64,000 nucleotides of DNA from Mobula hypostoma (lineage: Eukaryota): assembly GCF_963921235.1 (NCBI RefSeq), contig NC_086108.1, forward strand, positions 53,446,001-53,510,000, given 5' to 3'. The notes under the pieces are model-generated. The model was not told where the DNA came from. It ran no database searches and saw nothing but the letters and a program-made list of their open reading frames with translations. Both the position numbers and the translations under genes were made by a program. Each line of letters begins with the position of its first letter. The stretch's first letter is position 1. Shown piece by piece: positions 21,013-64,000 of the stretch.

Positions 21013-23022
21013 TAGTAATACAAGCAAAATTGGCTGTTGATTAACTAATGAGTTTAAAATCTGTGCTTTGATAATTCATTTTTATATTGTTTGGATAGTT
21101 TGAATGACAATAATTGCTACATTTAGTTTCATCTGAGACCAGACATCATTTAGACCCAACTCATTTTCAGCTGCTTTAAAAAAAATCATTATGATGCAAC
21201 TTTCTTTTACAGCATTTGCCAGATTGAGATTTTGTGACCCATCTCATGTGTAGATATTTGGAGTATGGGTGAAATAGAGTAAGATACAGAAGGGATACCA
21301 GAAGAATGTATTTAACAGAAAGCTGATGGAAATATTTGTTTGACATTATTTTATGATTTCTGAGAAGCGTAGCTGTTTTATCTTTATTTACATCTGCCTT
21401 ATTTGTTATTTTTCATTCCCGGAAAGAATAGAATGGTCTATCTTGAAAATTTACCTCCATAATGGGCTTCCTTTTACTGACCGTGTTTAGGTATTTTTCT
21501 CAGTCTTGAATGCTGATACCATTTTAGCTAGTGAGATCCTCAGGTGGCAACTCGGATAAAATGGGAATCCTCCTCAGCTCAATAGCGCCATCTTGAGGTA
21601 GTATTTGAATAGGTCATATTTGATGTTTGCTTGTAGTTCAAGCAGAAAACACCTGTTTTTGAAATAGATGTTTTTCATTATCTTCACTTCTCATCCCAGT
21701 CATAATTGTTCTACTTATCCCTCTAATAGCACTGAAGGTGGCTATTATATCTATCCCTTCCTCTTCACTCTTTGAAAGAACTATCTTATTATTTCCACTC
21801 ACCTGCTTTTAATTTAGGATGATACTCAGACAAACACTGGGTATTGATGCATGTATTTAGGCTGCCAAGTTTGTATTAATGTTTTTCATTTACTCTGCAG
21901 TTTGAAGCAAAACAGATTGTGCTTTTCATAAATATAGCCTTTCTCTGCACTTTCCATTCCTTTGCTATCTTTAGACGTTTGAGAAGAACTGAAAATCACA
22001 AATGTAGAGCATGTTTCAGGTGGCGTGCCTTTTGGAAATATCCTGAGGTATTACATCTCACTTCTGAGTTGATTATAATTGCTACCTAGTCACAAAAGGA
22101 GTGCCTTTGTGGTATTTATTATGTTTTATTTGTTTTTAAGTTTCTGTTACTACTTGAGATTTGGTTTTGTTATCCTATTCGTATCGTTACCAATTTCTGT
22201 CTAAAGGTTATGCTACTATTAATTTTGCCAACAGGTTTGTTAATATTAAACTCTGTATACTATGTATATTAGTTTTAGTATTGTTGGCACAAATAATTAC
22301 TGAAATTGTAGTTGCGAAAGTGATTTCTTGGCAGATCTTATTTGTTTAAGTTGCATGTTATAACTCTCCAGTGTAGAGAGTCAATGGAGAGGTGGTTGTT
22401 TTTTTTTGTGATTGACTAGGCAGAGTTAACAATTCTGCAGAATTTCTGAGGCAGATCTCTTGCCAAACCAAGCGGTCACACATCTGCAATAATTGGTGAG
22501 GGTCATCAGGGTCATGCTGAATTTCCTTGGCCTTATATAGAAATAGAGGCACTGGTGTGCTTTCTTGTTCATTTTTATAGTTTGAAACTTCACTTCTACT
22601 CAGCATCGCTGATACAAGGCAAAAACAGAAGGATCTGAGGTTGTACATGTGTAAGTCATTGAAAGTGGAAGCATAATGTAATTTCCTATTGAGCTTTTAT
22701 GGAATAGTTGGTTTAGCCACGACAGGGGAAATGTGTTGATTTCCCAACACCATATTTTCATAAAGATTTGAAGATCTTAAAATGCAGAAGAGGTTGACAG
22801 GAACGATTGCAGAGATGTAGGATTTTAATCACTAGTCCTCCAGTCAATCCATATAACTCCACTCCTTGGCAAAGATGACAGATCTCAATAGAGGTACTTA
22901 AAATTATGAAGGATTGACAGAGAAAATATTTCATTGGTGGAAAAGCCAAGAAGCAGAACACACAAAATGAAGGTGATTAGCAGAAGAACTAAATGTGACA
23001 TGTGGAACAACTTATTTATACA

Positions 23023-25879
23023 TTCGTTTCCAAGCCTCTCAATTTGGACCTTCTGAGGATCCCAGGTACTCACATTTTATTGACTCTGCCTCTCGCCGCT
23101 TCTCCCGTCAAGCTCTGAAGGCGACGCTCTCTGCCATGAGGAGGTACTTGGTGTCCCTATCCCAGACTCTTCCACACCTTCGGGACACTTTCTTCGCCGT
23201 CTGTAATGGTCCTACCCGCTATTTCATCCTCCGTCGGATCCACACCTGCAATCGCCGTTTCTTTGACTTTGTCATGTTAGGCAAAGATCGCAAGATCTTA
23301 CATCTACGGACTGCAGAGCCTGCCGGCCCCGACGCTAGCAGGCATGAACTTTCGGTTGCGGCCTCTGCCGTTGGTCTCGGCGGCTCCAACACCTCAGGAC
23401 ATATTCAAAACCCGGACTCCAGCAACGACCATGGAGACATTCAAAGCGATCGCGCAACCACCAACTGCGACTCCAGCCTTGAACTCCAGGCCGGGTCTTT
23501 ATGTGCTGCTGTTGTGACTCCCGTCTCCCCTTCCCCCACCACCACTCCGCAGCCCCGTCTTCCTCAGATCCCACCGTCAGCTCCTGGGCCCTCAGAGGCT
23601 CCATCTTCCTCTCACCCCAACCCTCCCCTCTCCATTGACACCCCTAGCCTCCCCCCTCCCCCCTCTGATCCCAGCTCTCATCCGTGCCGGGTCTTTACCA
23701 TCCCCTCCGACCTTCAACTGTCGGAGGCAGAACGCTCTGTTCTCAGTAAGGGCCTCATGTTTGTCCCCCTTCGCCCACACCTCAGCGAGTTCCGTGTTCG
23801 CCACGATGCGGAACTTTTCTTCCGCCGTCTCCGTCTCCGAGCCTACTTCTTCGGCAAGGACTCTTCCACCCCCACCGATGACCCCTTCTCCTGTCTTCAT
23901 CCCTCCTCTTCTTCATGGACACCCCGCTCTGGTCTTCTGCCTGCTCTGGATCTCTTTATTGCCAACTGCCGACGGGACATCAACCGTCTCGACTTCACCG
24001 CACCTTGTCCCCATTCCAACCTCACTCCTTCAGAACGCTCTGCTCTCCACTCCCTCCGCACTAATCCTAACATTATTATTAAACCCGCTGATAAGGGGGG
24101 TGCTGTTGTAGTCTGGCGTACTGACCTCTACCTTGCTGAGGCACAGCGACAACTCGCGGATACCTCCTCTTATTTACCCCTCGATCGTGACCCCACTAAG
24201 GAGCACCAGGCCATTGTCTCCCACACTATCAACGACTTTATCCGCTCAGGGGATCTCCCATCCACTGCTACCAACCTTATAGTTCCCACACCCCGCACTT
24301 CCCGTTTCTACCTCCTACCCAAGATCCACAAACCTGCCTGTCCTGGCCGACCTATTGTCTCAGCTTGCTCCTGCCCCACCGAACTCGTTTCTGCATACCT
24401 CGACACTGTTTTATCACCCCTTGTTCAATCCCTTCCGACCTATGTTCGTGACACTTCTCACGCTCTTAAACTTTTCGATGATTTTAAGTTCCCTGGCCCC
24501 CACCGCTTTATTTTCACCTTGGATGTCCAGTCCCTATATACTTCCATCCCCCATCAGGAAGGTCTCAAAGCTCTACGCTTCTTTTTGGATTCCAGACCTA
24601 ATCAGTTCCCCTCTACCACCACTCTGCTCCGTCTAGCAGAATTAGTCCTTACTCTTAATAATTTCTCCTTTTGCTCCTCCCATTTCCTCCAAACTAAAGG
24701 TGTAGCTATGGGCACCCGTATGGGTCCTAGCTATGCCTGCCTTTTTGTTGGGTTTGTGGAACAATCTATGTTCCGTGCCTATTCTGGTATCTGTCCCCCA
24801 CTTTTCCTTCGCTACATCGACGACTGCATTGGCGCTGCTTCCTGCACGCATGCAGAACTCGTTGACTTTATTAACTTTGCCTCCAACTTTCACCCTGCCC
24901 TCAAGTTTACCTGGTCCATTTCTGACACCTCCCTCCCCTTTCTAGATCTTTCTGTCTCTGTCTCTGGAGACAGCTTATCCACTGATGTCTACTATAAGCC
25001 TACTGACTCTCACAACTATCTGGACTATTCCTCTTCTCACCCTGTCTCTTGCAAAAACGCCATCCCCTTCTCGCAATTCCTCCGACTCCGCCGCATCTGC
25101 TCTCAGGATGAGGCTTTTCATTTTAGGACGAGGGAGATGTCTTCATTTTTTAAAGAAAGGGGCTTCCCTTCCTCCACTATCAACTCTGCTCTTAAACGCA
25201 TCTCCCCCATTTCACGTACATCTGCTCTCACTCCATCCTCCCACCACCCCACTAGGAATAGGGTTCCCCTGGTCCTCACCTACCACCCCACCAGCCTCCG
25301 GGTCCAACATATTATTCTCCATAACTTCCGCCACCTCCAACGGGATCCCACCACTAAGCATATCTTTCCCTCCCCCCTCTCTCTGCATTCCGCAGGGATC
25401 GCTCCCTACACAACTCCCTTGTCCATTCGTCCCCCCCATCCCTCCCCACTGATCTCCCTCCTGGCACTTATCCGTGTAAGCGGAACAAGTGCTACACATG
25501 CCCTTACACTTCCTCCCTTACCACCATTCAGGGCCCCAAACAGTCCTTCCAGGTGAGGCATCACTTCACCTGTGAGTCGACTGGGGTGATATACTGCGTC
25601 CGGTGCTCCCGATGTGGCCTTTTATATATTGGTGAGACCCGACGCAGACTGGGAGACCGCTTTGCTGAACATCTACGCTCTGTCCGCCAGAGAAAGCAGG
25701 ATCTCCCAGTGGCCACACATTTTAATTCCACATCCCATTCCCATTCTGACATGTCTATCCACGGCCTCCTCTACTGTAAAGATGAAGCCACACTCAGGTT
25801 GGAGGAACAACACCTTATATTCAGTATGGGTAGCCTCCAACCTGATGGCATGAACATTGACTTCTCTAACTTCCGCTAG
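23023..25879 (+). pseudogene. PLE reverse transcriptase / GIY-YIG endonuclease ORF with one -1 frameshift (~25370-25385), lacking its native start
   Basis: KPADKGGAVV, YLLPKIHK..PGRPIVS, TLDVQSLYTSIP, GVAMGTRMGPSYA, RYIDD, LPFLD, VYYKPTD. After the shift: SAFRRDRSL..YPCKRNKCYTC..VIYCVRCSRCGLLYIGET..RFAEH; TAG at 25877-25879. Confidence 0.9.
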
Positions 25880-53439: not shown

Positions 53440-54874
53440 CAGGCATCCCACCTCTCCCGGAAGTTCCAGGAGTCTCCCGCATTTTGATAGTGGCTCCCTG
53501 ATGCTCAGAAATTATATACAATATCCCGGAAATCGATTTTTTTTTAAGAGGGAGAGCGAGCATCCTGATTGGTGTCTCTTCGTGCTAAGAGTGGTCCCCA
53601 TCCGCTAGGCCGCGAGGAAACAATATGATTTGGCGATATGAGTCAGCTGCACCTTTCCTCATTCCCTGTCACGCACTGTTGAATTTGAATGCAAGCGAGG
53701 TCATTATGGATGCATCATGTATGTCAGCGCGGGAAGATCAACTCCTCGAGCTTGCAAATGACGGTGGGCTGAAAAATATGTTTGACATAACATCTTTGTT
53801 GGCATTCTGGATCAAAGTCAAGGCTAAATATCCTGAGATAGCCACGAAAGCACTGAAAATGTTGCTTCCATTTCCAACATATCTCTGCGAAGTGGAGTTT
53901 TCTGCAATGAATGCAACGGAAACAAAATTGCGGAATAGACTGGACACAAGGATCCCCCTTTGAGTATCGCTGTCTCCCATCACCCCTCGATAGGACCGTC
54001 TTGTTGTAAGAAAACAAGCCCAGGGCTCCAACTATTCAGCGATGTTGGTGTGTTGCAATGATTTTATATGGTCATAAAAGGAAAATACGTGCTGTGTTTA
54101 ATATCCAAATGTTACTTGAAATGTTATGATGCTATTGACTTATAATTAACTTATCATTATATTCATACGAGGAAAATATGCGCTGTATGTTCAATATTAA
54201 ATTCGTTAGATAAACACTTTTAGAAACGAAATTGAGCGTATTAGCCGCTTATAAGTGACTTACAGTTGACTTATCACCTATATTCCGGTCGTGATTAACA
54301 CCCCGCCCCCCATGCGGTCAGCCGGTCTGCAAGAATGTTGTCAATATTAAACCGGTCCGCGGTGCAATAAATGTTGGGGACCCCTCCTAAGTAGACTTAT
54401 CAGTTTTCTCTGTGGGCGGGCTTTACAATCGACCTCAAAAATAATGACAGTGTTGCTCGCTGCACTGTTTGCAACAGTGACTTTTCTATTGCCCATGGTG
54501 GGTTAAAATGTAAAAGACATGTTGAGGTGAGCTTAACAGGTGTCATTCATTCATTAGCATAGCTAACGTTATTTAAACTAGCTGGCTGGCTGGCTGCTAA
54601 GGAGCTACGCTATTGATGTCCTACATGATGAGGCCAAACTCCCTGTAGACTTGCTTAAAGTTGTAATAGAATAAACATGATAATATAATATAAATACATA
54701 TTTTAATGTCACATTTTCTGCATATACCCATCTTGGTTTACAGATTAGACAAAATAACTAAACCAAGTATTACATACACCCTTGGAGGTCGACCGGGGGG
54801 TGGGGGGGGTAAGGGGTTGTGGGGGATGGGGGTGCTACCTCCCTGAAATGTGTTTTTGCAGGGTAGGATGTCTG
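53440..54874. mobile_element. Non-autonomous TIR DNA element (hAT-like) carrying an internal Charlie fragment
   Basis: Termini CAGGCATCCCACC ... GGTAGGATGTCTG; flanks ATATGG / ATGTGG. Confidence 0.55.
53606..54385 (+). mobile_element. hAT-Charlie 3' fragment with dimerisation domain remnant
   Basis: ORF 53625..53963 EDQLLELANDGGLK..FWIKVKAKYPEIATKALKMLLPFPTYLCE.EFSAM..KLRNRLD; ends in a GTTGGGGACCCCT TIR. Confidence 0.85.
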
Positions 54875-58180: not shown

Positions 58181-58433
58181 ATTATGAAGGTTTCCAGCAT
58201 CTGCAGAATCTCCTGTGCTACATATCTAATATGCTAATAAAGCATTTTATACATTATGTGCCTTGTAAGGAGTCAGGAGGCCACTGGATAGGCTGGGCTA
58301 TGTAGCACCAGGGGAACAGAGTGTGGCACCTATCGCTGTCTTTTACACCTGGGTTGGACTATGTGCTTTGCATGGAGGGTTGGCAAATTATCTCAATGTC
58401 ATGAGGACATGACTAAATTTGGTGGGGGGAGAG

Positions 58434-58975
58434 TGTAACACCTTGGGAAATGTTTCACCGCTAATGTAATGGTCTTTCTGTAGAAGCAGTGTTTGGGTTA
58501 TGGTTAGAAATAACAGGTGCTTTGGAATGTGGGCCATCCAATGAGGGGAGTGTGTTTTCATGCTATGTGCCTGACACCGAGGTAATCTGGGTCTCGTGTT
58601 CGGCGGAAGATGGAGAGAGAAGGAGCCAGAAAGGAGTGGACTTGGAGTGGGGCCGGGAGTTGATGAAGCCCAGGGAAATCGATGGAGGACCAGCAGAGGG
58701 GAAACCGTGAACTCCAACTTGTGCACATTAGACTTTCATTAAAATGGACCCTTTTTGTTTTTCTTTTCTAACCCTTTAGTCAAATTAAGAATTATAACGC
58801 TAAATCATTTACTATGGTGTACTGTCTGTTATTTCATGGTTCTGATTTGTAACGGGAACAAATCATTTCAGCATCCACACGAACAAGAGGTTTTGCACCT
58901 CAAACTTCACATGGTTGGCGGGGCCAGAGATCATCTTCCCTAGACTTACGCCACCAACCAAACCAGAGGGTTACA
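58434..58975 (+). mobile_element. Probable solo LTR
   Basis: TGTAAC ... GTTACA inverted termini around ~540 bp of non-coding sequence; no clear TSD. Confidence 0.5.
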
Positions 58976-59244
58976 TACAAAATAGAAGGCAATAATTCTA
59001 ACAGGTGGAGAGTGGACTGCTATGTTTCATGATCTTCATTTGAAATTGGAATTGATTTATTATTGCCACCTGTGCAGAGAAACTGTAGAATATTTTCCTA
59101 TTCCTGTATTCTTTTCATTACTTTGATTGACTGCTATTGCAGTATTGTTAGGGCTCCTTCATAGCAGCATTACAATACATCACCTTAAATGGACATGGGG
59201 ACCAGTAATACATGCTGACCTTGTCTAAGTGATCACCCACTTTG

Positions 59245-59790
59245 AACTGAGCAGGACTTACTTCCATTGTAGTACTTTAAATTCTGAAGTGGCTAATGAG
59301 TGCAATATGGGGCCCACAGGTGAAGGAATCCTGACAAGGCAATGGTTAACAGGCCAAGTAGGTGGGTGATTAAAGAGGTGGTGTACTCCGCCCTTTGTTC
59401 AAAGTGTGCTCCCAGTGCATGGACTTGAGTCCCTCAGCATCGTCCCAGATACTTCTCCGCTATTTTGAGCAGTCATGAACCAGAGTTTCCACAAGTGTTC
59501 AAGTATGTTACACTTTTTTCAATGTTTTGAGAACATACTAGTTTTGAGAATTTGATGCCATCAAGCGAATGATGTGATCTGTTCATTGGAACCAACAAAG
59601 CTTAACTCGGGCTAAACTAGGGATGTCAGTCTAGGCTATGGCGCTGATATTAAGTTGCTTATCCTGTTAAAAGGTTTGAAGGATATTACAAAGGTAACAT
59701 TGTGGGTATCTTCCGTTACCCTGAGGTGCCTGCTGCATGGAGTCCATCAATCAAAATCAATAACGGACCTTGGTCTTTGTACCAGATTTG
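59245..59790 (-). mobile_element. RTE-like LINE 3' remnant
   Basis: Resembles the decayed stretch at ~51725-52020 (gacttacttcca..tctgaagtggctaatga); family call tentative. Confidence 0.4.
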
Positions 59791-59800
59791 ATGTCTTGTT

Positions 59801-59836
59801 CTTCTCAGCCTTTTGGCTAAGATCAAGTGTAGTATC
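59801..59836 (+). pseudogene. U2 snRNA 5' fragment (nt 5-40)
   Basis: CTTCTCAGCCTTTTGGCTAAGATCAAGTGTAGTATC versus U2 CTTCTCGGCCTTTTGGCTAAGATCAAGTGTAGTATC: 35/36 identical (one CpG transition). Homology stops just after the branch-point recognition sequence GTAGTA. Confidence 0.92.
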
Positions 59837-62800
59837 GTGGTGGATCTCTGAGTATGCTGACATTGAGGATGGAAGAGGGACGTACTTGTCATGATCAAGG
59901 GGCTGACAAGAGTATAACCTGCTGACATAGGGGTGGACCCTCATGCTGATTGGGAAAGCAATCTAAAACCACTTTCCAGCATTTTATTAACACCCAATCA
60001 GAATGGATACACCTTTATTGACTGGAGGACCTGTGATCCAAAACACTTCAGGGTGGCAGAAGAGGGTCACAGTGAGAGAAACCCCTTCAACAGGGATCAC
60101 TTCATTTGGAAGGTCCTGCTCAAATACTGCAAGTTCAAGGCAAACAACATTTTCTGAGTGCAGGACTTCACTAGTAATGGCTTTTTGATGTGACCTTCAA
60201 GTACACGGCAGCATGGCAGAAGTTCCTCCAGGATTTTCAGAAGAAGGGGGATTGAGGTACCACTGTTGCTACTGAAGGTGCTGCCACTCTTCACCCAGAA
60301 GGAGTGTGTGACCACAGTGCACACATTCAATCCATATGTATCCATTGTGGATATCCTCACCTTCCTTGTCCATTAATTCAAGGGAGCAGGAAACTGTGTG
60401 AACATTAAAGATATGGTTGGGATCTGGACAAGCGAGCCCCAGGTGAAGGTCAAGTTGAGGATAGGTTTGAATGGCTCCATCATCCACCCTCCCTCAGACT
60501 TAGCCATAACTGCAACATCTGGACGTGTGGCAGTGCCATCATCTGAAGAACTGCAAGCAGAAAGGTCATCAGACAAAAGACTGCCTGGAGAGCAAATGCT
60601 GTAACCTCTGAGGAGAAGCAGGCCATTTCTACAAAGCCTGCCCAAAGCATGCCAGCATCTAGACATAGGCAATAAGAGGAGGAAATGGCATTGATAATGC
60701 CCAGGCAAATGTCGACGTACCCACCAGCAGTGTGGAGGCCAAGGCCAACAATGAAATGCAGACTGTGATATCACGAGCCCCTACTCCCCAACCGAAAATC
60801 CCCAGGCCCCTCCACATTAGCAGGAGGAGTCCATGGAGGAGGGATAAGCAGAACCAGGCCATTCAGCCCATTGAGTCCACTCCGCCACTCCACCGTGGCC
60901 AATGCAGGATCCTACTTAACCCCATACACCTGCCTTCTAACCATATCCTTTGATGCCCTGACTGATCAGGAAATATCAACTTCTGCCTTAAATATACCCA
61001 CAGACTTGGCCTCCACCGCAGTCTATGGCAGAGCATTCCACAGACTCACCACTCCTTGGGTAAAAACAAAATCCCTGTTCTAAAATTGCCGCTCAATTTT
61101 GAGGCTGTGCCCTCTAGTTCTGGATACCCCCACCAGAGAGAACATCTACTTCATATTCACCTTATCAAGTCCTTTTAACATTCAATAATTCTCAATGAGA
61201 TTCCCACACATTCTTCTAATTTCCAGTGAGTACAGGCCCAAAGCTGCCAAACACTCCTCATATGCTGACCCCTTCATTCCCGGAATCATCCTCGTGAACC
61301 TCCTCTGGACTCTCTGCAATGACAACACATCTTTTCTGAGGTATGGGGCCCAAAACTGTTGACGTTACTCCAAGTGCGGCCTGACTAGAGTCTTATAAAG
61401 ACTCATCATTATCTCCTTGCTTTTATATTCTATTCCCCTTGAAATAACTGCCAACATTGCATTTGCCTTACTTAACCTGTGAATTAACCTTCTGGGACTC
61501 TTAGACAAAGACTTCTGAGTCCCTCTGCACCTCTGATGTTTGAACCTTCTCCCCATTTAGGTAATAGTCTGCACTATTGTTCCTTTTACCAAAATGCATT
61601 ATCATTCATTTCCCAACACTGTATTCCACATTTTTGCCCTTTCTTCCAACTTATCTAAGTTCTGCAGCAATTGCATTGCTTCCTCAGCACCAGATACCCC
61701 TCCACCCCTATCTTTGTATCACCCGCAAACTTTGCCACAAAGCCATCAATTCCATTATCCAAATAATTGACAAACAATGTGAAAAGTAGTTATCCCAATT
61801 CTGATCCCTGTGGAACACTACTAGTCACTGGTAGCCAACCAGATATGGCCCCTTTTATTCCTACTTGCTGCCTCCTGCCTGTCAGCCATTCCTTTATCCA
61901 TGCCAGTATCTTTCCTGTAACTCCATAGGATTTGATCTTGTTAAGCACCTTATCAAATGCCTTCTGAAAATCCAAGTGAATGACATCCATTGCCTTTCCT
62001 TTGTCCACTCTGCTTGTTACTTCCTCAAAGAACTCTAACAGATTTGTCAGGCAGGATTTCACTTTACAGAAACCATGCTGACTTTGACTTACTTTGTCAT
62101 CAGCCTCCAAATACCCCAAAACTTCATACTTAATAATAGACTCCAGACTCCAACACTTTCCCAACCACTGAGGTTAGGCTAAATGACCTATAATTTCCTT
62201 TAATTTGCCATCCTCCCTTCTTAAGGATTGGAGTGACATTTGCAATCTTCCAGTCCTCTGGGACCATGCCAGAAACAAGTGATTTTTTAAAGATCATCAC
62301 CGATGCATCTGCTATCTCTTCAGTAACCTCTCTCAGGACTCTGGCATGTTATCCATCTGGTCCAGGTGACTTATCCACCTTAAGACCTTTGAGTTTGCCT
62401 AGCATGTTTTCCTTTGTTATAGCAATGGCACTCACTTCATCTCCCTGACACTCGTGGACTCTGGCACACAGCAAGTGCTTCCACAGTGAAGACAGATGCA
62501 AAGTAGCCATTAAGTTCATCTGCTATTTCTTTGTTCTCCCCCCCCCCCCCATTACTACCTCACCAGCATCATTTTCCAGTGGTCCAATACTATCTCTCAC
62601 TTCCCTTTTATTCTTTATATAACTGAAACACTTTTGGTATCCTGCTTTATATTATTGGCTAGTTTGCCCTTGCATTTCATCCTTTCCCTTATAGCTCTTT
62701 TAGTTGACTTTTGTTGGATTTTAAATGCTTCCCAAGCATCCAACTTCCCACTCACTTTTGCTACATTATAGTCCCTTTCTTTTGCTTTTATGCAGTCCTT

Positions 62801-64000
62801 AACTTACCTTGCCAGCCACAGATGTCTAGCCCCGCCACCTGAGAACAACTTCTTCTGTGGGACTTGCCTTGCGTCTTGTGAACTATTCTCAGAAAGTTCA
62901 GCCATCTCTGCTCTGTCATCATCCCGCCCAGTACCCTCCTCCAATCCATCTAGACAAGAAGTGAAATGGCAGGTGGTGAAGAGAAGAAATCCCTGAAGAC
63001 AACATCCAAAAGATAGTGGGCTGCCTAGAGTTAAAGGAATAGGAAGGACAGGACAACAAACAGATGCCAGCAACCTCTCTTTGTCAGAGGATGAAGCAAG
63101 CACAGGAATCTGATAGCCCAGGCATAGGAAGTACCAATTAATAGAGGAAAAAGTATAAAGGAACCAACAGGCAATTATGGATAGGGAAAGAATTATGTTA
63201 CCCAAATCCCAGACCGGGTGCAGCACAAAATCCATAAGCTCCCAGCTCCAGGAGCGGCACAGTGCCCAATCAAAACCAGCACTGGGAAACCGGGAGCTGT
63301 ACAGAGGCCACTTGCTCCCAGCTCCAGGAAACCAGGAGCAGCAGAGGAGACAACCACCACCAGCTCCAGGAGTCTGGGAGCAGACCAACATCTGAGAGGT
63401 GGACAGTGTGGATCGACTAGAGCAGGATGTCGGAGGAGGAACAGTGACCAACCTCCCCCCAGGCACACCACCAGCATCGCCACACCCAAGGGAGGATCAT
63501 CCTCAGTACCTGAACCCACAAGCAGTATGCCAGTTCACCAATGCTGTGTGCATGATAGCTCAAACTGAGTGACAAGTGGACTGTGATACAAGAACTCAAT
63601 CATGGACATAAAACTGGCATCTTTGAATGTGTGCAGTGTGAAGAGAATGGTGCGACCTGTCAACGCTTTACAATAGCTGGCCAAGCCAAGGCGTGTGTGA
63701 CTTTTTTTCAGGAGTACGGGCTACCACACCTCCACAGCTACCAGAGGTGGGCGTGATGATGGCCCTATGGTTTTTCTGTGTGGTTGGGGGGCAATCATTG
63801 TTGTGCTTTGGGCCTGGGAATTTTGCTATGGGGAAGCAACTTGTCAATCACCCATCAGAGAGGTGGTTGGGGGGGGAGGGTTCACCTCCTCATGGCAGAC
63901 ATAATGAACCGGAACACTCTGCTGCGGCTAATTAATGAGTATGCCTCATCTGTGCAGAGCGAGTGGCTGGCCGGTTCCAACCAGTTCCCACCACTGATGC
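59837..64000 (+). mobile_element. Decayed Tx1-clade L1 retrotransposon, Keno-like (U2-targeting); runs off the window end
   Basis: ORF1 remnant from ATG 60003: NRDHFIWKVLLKYCKF..IF*VQDF..FDVTF, NPYV, KDMVGIWTS..VKVKLR..IIHPPS (ZCCHC3-like) and knuckles KNCKQKGHQTKDC, CNL*GEAGHFYKAC (60546-60644). ORF2 APE remnant from ATG 63602: MDIKLASLNV..FFQE..GLGILL..LRLINEYA. Confidence 0.85.
60845..62945 (-). mobile_element. CR1 LINE fragment inserted in the Tx1 ORF1
   Basis: ORFs 61790..62164 (SQHGFCKVKSCLTNLLEFFEEVT..DFQKAFDKV..VPQGSELG) and 61365..61556 (LYKTLVRPHLE). Confidence 0.88.

What the first reader, a model, noticed from the sequence alone, without database searches (positions are those of the whole stretch)
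59801..64000. U2 snRNA 5' end fused to a Tx1-clade L1 (Keno-like) element outside a U2 gene
Seen: a 36-nt U2 5' fragment (35/36 match) ends just after GTAGTA and runs directly into a 5' UTR, a ZCCHC3-like ORF1 with CCHC knuckles, and an APE-type ORF2. Established: Keno elements (Tx1 group of L1) insert site-specifically into U2 snRNA genes close to this position. Inference: the upstream DNA looks like another repeat remnant, with no U2 nt 1-4 and no promoter I can recognise. So this copy probably came from a U2-promoter-driven U2-Keno co-transcript that integrated off-target, carrying its U2 leader. It would then record a U2-parasitising retrotransposon lineage in this genome. The ORF track does not show it, because both ORFs are broken and a CR1 splits ORF1.
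Basis: partly seen in the sequence, partly recalled or inferred. Interest (0 to 1): 0.75.

Follow-up and report, generated by a model that had tools for sequence, protein, structure and literature searches.

The report
Dead LINE copy with U2 head
A broken jumping gene (a LINE) begins with 36 bases of the U2 splicing RNA although no U2 promoter is recognisable in front of it; it is likely a stray copy of a U2-gene-seeking family, and LINEs with such heads are already described.

Summary
The anatomy is real. U2 positions 5-40 (59801-59836, 35 of 36 matches to the Rfam consensus) lead into a 166-nt leader, a broken ZCCHC3-type ORF1 split by a 2.1-kb opposite-strand LINE, and the first 400 nt of an AP-endonuclease ORF2 (weakly supported). 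No octamer or PSE-like motif lies upstream. ORF1 falls in a 100/100 clade of cartilaginous-fish Tx1-like proteins. One basking-shark member has an N-terminal extension that reads like the same head, so the head is probably a family trait. Best reading: a dead, off-target copy of a Keno-like family, copied from a parent inside a U2 gene. Keno membership, the U2-promoter origin and the off-target claim could not be tested: there was no genome, no 3' end, no read data and no Keno reference sequence. U2-headed Tx1 families outside U2 genes are in print (crocodilian Tx1-Mar, PMC4494074), and this scan noted the same thing several times on other DNA, including this genome. One new detail: the 5' junction overlaps the window's only near-match to Keno's target motif, which suggests relaxed targeting. 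Low interest.

The parts
59801..59836 (+). U2 snRNA-derived head, model positions 5-40
   Evidence: Rfam alignment, 35 of 36 matches
59797..59808 (+). 5' junction that also matches the Keno 3' target motif (U2 nt 41-52) at 11 of 12 positions; possible target-site duplication or microhomology
   Evidence: only match with at most 1 mismatch in 64 kb, 0.58 expected; the 4 bases outside the head occur at 0.7% of positions; noticed post hoc
59837..60002 (+). 5' leader of the LINE; no U1 or other RNA family, no unusual fold
   Evidence: z 0.68, on 59841-60005; end set by the inferred ORF1 ATG at 60003
60003..60853 (+). ORF1 5' part: two ZCCHC3-type RNA-binding domains and CCHC knuckles, with stops, frameshifts and a deletion of about 60 nt
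   Evidence: start codon inferred
60854..62952 (-). later insertion of a CR1-like LINE fragment (label recalled); no shared flank word longer than 5 nt
   Evidence: RVT_1 E 4.4e-6; copies elsewhere in the window; junction check; ends approximate
62953..63575 (+). ORF1 3' part, low complexity, broken
   Evidence: tblastn of P0007 E 2e-6, P0047 E 2.5e-4
63602..64000 (+). start of ORF2, AP-endonuclease type, broken, cut by the window end
   Evidence: two-sequence profile E 7.8e-4; 48% identical over 79 aa to a whale-shark gene model that also carries the ORF1 domain, E 2e-17

Best explanation
This is a decayed copy of a Tx1-like LINE that starts with U2 positions 5-40, and it is likely an off-target daughter of a Keno-type parent that sat in a U2 gene and was probably transcribed from the U2 start site. 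Shown: head, leader, broken ORF1, nested LINE, endonuclease start, no promoter motif upstream. Inferred: (1) the parent lay at the Keno site, so its RNA began with U2 nt 1-40; (2) that RNA was reverse-transcribed to nearly full length by target-primed reverse transcription at a site outside a U2 gene; (3) the 5' end was joined with loss of nt 1-4, possibly through microhomology with a target-like sequence; (4) the copy then decayed and was interrupted by another LINE.
For: The head ends at nt 40, two bases past the published Keno/Utopia site (3' flank from nt 39). The LINE under the head is full length at its 5' end (leader plus ORF1 start). Template-switch chimeras are usually 5'-truncated and mostly U6; 1 of 58 characterised human U2 copies was attached to a repeat (PMC4476161). 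ORF1 sits in a 100/100 clade of 11 rows (the window plus 10 shark and ray proteins). The basking-shark member P0010 has an N-terminal extension matching the head's translation at 8 of 11 residues; 1 of 300 random peptides scored as high against the same 56 proteins. No octamer within 1 mismatch between 58374 and 60702, and no PSE-like match within 3 mismatches between 57881 and 63559. Carrying upstream target sequence in the element's RNA has a precedent in R2 (PMC3774820 passages).
Against: The 3' end lies beyond the window, so 'off-target' is not proven. No Keno sequence was available, and the same kind of ORF1 occurs in many fish Tx1-like elements of unknown target. Pol II started at human snRNA promoters does not appear to enter long-range productive elongation (PMC3337830), which sits badly with a multi-kb co-transcript. 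Published U2-headed Tx1-Mar families prefer DNA transposons, not U2, so a head does not imply U2 targeting. The PSE consensus is recalled and the locus is decayed (CpG observed/expected 0.14-0.25), so a lost promoter could be missed. P0010 is a single gene model, three frames were tried, and its DNA was not seen. 3'-truncated U2 copies also end in short preferred segments.
Confidence: 0.55

Rival explanations
1. The U2 piece is a fixed, inherited 5' head of a dispersed Tx1 family, as in crocodilian Tx1-Mar (Tx1-11_Crp). It was acquired once, and the family no longer needs U2 genes or their promoter.
For: Such families are published and co-cluster with Keno (PMC4494074). The head seems shared with a shark relative. 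snRNA promoters elongate poorly.
Against: No DNA-transposon target was found upstream (0 relevant Pfam hits in 83 pieces). The head is less decayed than the ORFs and ends at the Keno site. Unchecked earlier notes report Keno-like copies inside U2 genes of this genome.
Confidence: 0.22
2. An on-target insertion into a promoterless U2 pseudogene, or into a U2 gene whose upstream part was later lost. The rest of U2 would follow the element beyond 64000.
For: The break is at the canonical site. Dispersed U2 copies are common in vertebrate genomes (1,708 hits in human). The 3' flank was not seen.
Against: U2 nt 1-4 and promoter motifs are absent. Most human U2 pseudogenes are 3'-truncated (57 of 58) and may therefore lack the downstream half of the target.
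Confidence: 0.14
3. A one-off chimera: the reverse transcriptase switched to U2 RNA after copying the LINE, or the LINE landed directly behind a 3'-truncated U2 retrocopy.
For: Template switching onto snRNAs is documented across LINE clades, and truncation points cluster. Kojima reports repeated independent additions of U1/U2 pieces to SINEU.
Against: It is rare for U2 (1 of 58) and usually involves 5'-truncated LINEs. A relative shows a similar head.
Confidence: 0.09

Closest known systems
Keno (Tx1 clade, U2 snRNA gene-specific; Kojima and Fujiwara 2004, not seen, known through PMC4494074, PMC4640811 and PMC6136364)
   Same: AP-endonuclease-type two-ORF LINE joined to U2 at the same position (nt 38-40)
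   Different: No U2 promoter and no nt 1-4 upstream; 3' flank and RT not seen; no sequence comparison with any Keno was possible
Crocodilian Tx1-Mar families with snRNA heads (Tx1-11_Crp with U2; Tx1-2_Crp, Tx1-2B_Crp, Tx1-4_AMi with U1) and SINEU (PMC4494074)
   Same: Tx1 element carrying a U2-derived 5' head outside a U2 gene; lineage co-clusters with Keno
   Different: No Mariner-type target recognised upstream here; host appears to be a cartilaginous fish (inferred from ORF1 relatives)
Reptile Utopia with weakened specificity (PMC4640811)
   Same: Off-target copies with short U2-target-like sequence at the junctions; 20-bp target-site duplications reported for reptile families
   Different: Utopia has a restriction-like endonuclease and generally a single ORF
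R2 elements that carry upstream 28S sequence in their RNA (PMC3774820)
   Same: Host-gene 5' sequence would travel with the element RNA and help 5' joining
   Different: R2 uses a ribozyme and rDNA; no ribozyme-like Rfam hit or stable fold in this leader

Membership tests
Tx1-clade LINE | ORF1 with RNA-binding domains and CCHC knuckles | tested here: met
Tx1-clade LINE | ORF2 with N-terminal AP endonuclease | tested here: met
   (E 7.8e-4, best of 2329 tiles); weak: not significant
Tx1-clade LINE | RT groups with the Tx1 clade | not testable with these tools
   RT lies beyond 64000; relatives' gene models join this ORF1 type to endonuclease and RT (P0062; P0027)
Keno | 5' junction at U2 nt ~38 | tested here: met
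   head ends at nt 40; published 3' flank starts at nt 39
Keno | 3' flank is U2 from nt 39 | not testable with these tools
   beyond the window; no genome held
Keno | this copy resides in a promoter-bearing U2 gene | tested here: not met
   no nt 1-4, octamer or PSE-like motif; the PSE consensus is recalled
Keno | phylogenetic grouping with KenoDr1, KenoFr1, Keno-1_SSa | not testable with these tools
   none of the 30 relatives looked up bears a Keno name; supplement unavailable
Tx1-Mar | snRNA-derived 5' head outside an snRNA gene | tested here: met
   (5' side only)
Tx1-Mar | insertion into a Mariner-type DNA transposon | tested here: inconclusive
   no transposase Pfam hit in 83 upstream pieces; a non-coding element would be missed
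Utopia | single ORF with C-terminal restriction-like endonuclease | tested here: not met
   two ORFs, AP-endonuclease start

The most novel reading that the evidence does not exclude
U2 genes act as donor loci for a shark and ray Keno lineage that scatters copies to degenerate U2-like sites, and the U2 head doubles as a joining handle. U2 nt 5-12 resemble target nt 45-52, so the end of the cDNA pairs with the duplicated target, which would explain both the missing nt 1-4 and the single mismatch at nt 11. This would be direct evidence of an snRNA promoter driving a multi-kb LINE transcript, and of how a site-specific element relaxes into a dispersed family.
Probability: 0.2. Interest if true: 0.45.

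Novelty: new member of a known kind. Interest (0 to 1): 0.2.

Why it matters
It adds a cartilaginous-fish example of a Keno-like, U2-headed Tx1 family. How snRNA-headed elements are transcribed is stated as open in PMC4494074. A genome-wide set of such junctions could test whether the U2 promoter drives them, but this single decayed copy, with its 3' end unseen, cannot.

Tried and rejected
No whole genome is held. The run search listed 24 runs, 15 holding part of 58900-60900; no RNA holder listed. No reads or contigs were laid, so other copies and empty sites remain unexamined. Indexed homolog searches with two short pieces found nothing. Atlas searches gave no usable hit and an unsupported HTH family. 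Profile-profile and frameshift-aware endonuclease tests against one distant comparator were not significant (46 of 600 and 15 of 150 controls scored as high). The metagenome scan returned 72 loci, of which 3 (L003-L005) are distant Tx1-like elements with no snRNA hit; the viral and prokaryote scans returned none. A tandem Keno array was rejected: no ORF2 homology upstream and no A-rich tail before the head (A fraction 0.17, longest run 4). A second, U1-derived head in the leader was not found. An upstream transposon or repeat was not found. A host ZCCHC3 gene was rejected: many lesions, an endonuclease ORF following, and multicopy relatives.

Full report
Observation. Rfam finds U2 at 59797-59992 (38.5 bits, E 1e-5, gathering score 46), but only model positions 5-40 match, at 59801-59836, 35 of 36 with a mismatch at position 11. 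Nothing in the window reaches a gathering score. Behind the head lie a 166-nt leader and a broken ORF1 whose pieces match the ZCCHC3 RNA-binding domains. A search of 1.84 billion representatives with an 89-residue piece gave 33 hits; the best are skate, ray and shark 'ZCCHC3-like' gene models at 43-67% identity, so the host is probably a cartilaginous fish (inference). These relatives align on both sides of a 2.1-kb minus-strand LINE at about 60854-62952 (the label CR1 is recalled), and they show about 60 nt lost from the knuckle region. ORF2 starts near 63602. Its AP-endonuclease identity rests on a profile of two non-shark sequences, best of 2329 tiles at E 7.8e-4, and on 48% identity to a whale-shark model that also carries the ORF1 domain. 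Single-sequence, Pfam, PDB and profile-profile tests were negative or not significant.

Upstream. There is no octamer within one mismatch between 58374 and 60702 and no match to a recalled PSE consensus within three mismatches between 57881 and 63559; the expected positions are from passages of PMC3464664 and PMC5493778. There is no ORF2 homology or A-rich tail in front of the head, so this is not a tandem array.

Is the head a family trait? In an ORF1 tree of 26 rows (the window plus 25 relatives; short fragments, near-duplicates and unrelated low-scoring hits were left out), the window falls in a 100/100 clade with 10 shark and ray proteins. One of these, basking-shark P0010, has an N-terminal extension matching the head's translation at 8 of 11 residues. 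The other two frames reached 6 and 4, and 1 of 300 random peptides reached 8 against the same 56 proteins. This suggests a U2 piece in front of a relative, but it is one gene model whose DNA I did not see, and it cannot tell an on-target from an off-target copy.

Junction. The 3' flanks of Keno and Utopia begin at U2 nt 39 (PMC4640811; target printed in PMC6136364). The head ends at nt 40, which fits a parent at the Keno site. The only match in 64 kb within one mismatch to the target motif (U2 nt 41-52) lies at 59797-59808, across the 5' junction (0.58 expected). Eight of those bases belong to the head itself; the four outside occur at 0.7% of positions. This was noticed post hoc. It would fit insertion at a degenerate target with a duplication joined to the head by microhomology, and weakly specific Utopia copies show target-like junctions. 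The mismatch at nt 11 is equally explained by CpG decay (observed/expected 0.14-0.25).

Mechanism. Most likely (0.55) a Keno-type parent in a U2 gene produced an RNA starting with U2 nt 1-40, which was reverse-transcribed almost to full length elsewhere and then decayed; every step of this is inferred. In favour: the full-length 5' end, the break position, and the rarity of U2-LINE template-switch chimeras (1 of 58 human U2 copies; PMC4476161). R2 offers a precedent for carried host sequence (PMC3774820). Against: human snRNA promoters elongate poorly (PMC3337830), and published U2-headed Tx1 families target DNA transposons. Rivals: a fixed family head (0.22), on-target insertion in a U2 pseudogene (0.14), a one-off chimera (0.09). 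No genome was held, no reads were laid, and the 3' end is outside the window, so these cannot be separated here.

Comparison and novelty. It works like Keno at the 5' junction, but membership is untested: none of the 30 relatives looked up carries a Keno name and the RT is unseen. PMC4494074 (parts 1-4 of 5 read; supplements unavailable, and they hold the Tx1-Mar target figures) describes Tx1-Mar families that co-cluster with Keno and carry U1 or U2 heads. Of PMC4640811 I read parts 1-2 of 5, section 11 and passages; of PMC4476161 the outline, sections 5 and 8 and passages; of the other papers passages only, including PMC4275248, which was uninformative. Kojima and Fujiwara 2004 was not seen. 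Eight library searches listed no paper on Keno in cartilaginous fish by title or abstract, but the library lacks Repbase Reports and most subscription papers. Earlier notes of this scan report U2-headed copies and Keno-like copies in U2 genes in this genome and in another; they are unchecked and not counted as support. Verdict: real, a new member of a known kind, interest 0.2.

Noticed in passing
window 22977-25879 +: Nearly intact Penelope-like element (label inferred): 859-aa frame with RVT_1 (E 3.4e-5) and an overlapping frame with GIY-YIG (E 6.8e-5); CpG-rich, so probably young.
   Followed up: partly
window ~53780-53950 +: By eye it reads like the C-terminal end of a hAT/Charlie transposase (recalled); Pfam gave no hit.
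   Followed up: partly
window ~58420-58860: Looks by eye like a solo LTR or other repeat about 1 kb upstream of the head; not tested.
   Followed up: no
P0010 (XP_078387188.1), residues ~42-55: Directly after the U2-like stretch the residues look, from recall, like a translation of the U1 5' region, which would mean a stacked U2+U1 head as in SINEU; no DNA available to test it.
   Followed up: no
P0013 (XP_078284208.1): A skate 'histone H3-like' model is an ORF1 fragment of this family (67% identical) fused to histone H3: a relative sits next to a histone gene, or the model is an artefact.
   Followed up: partly
L003:3249-8881: Two tandem Tx1-like LINEs from a metagenome contig, the second intact (1309-aa ORF2), directly followed by two 5S rRNA matches: possibly a 5S-array-associated family.
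   Followed up: partly
P0020 (MGL6081714.1): A Tx1-like ORF1 grouping with fish sequences is deposited as a Gammaproteobacteria MAG protein, probably host contamination.
   Followed up: no
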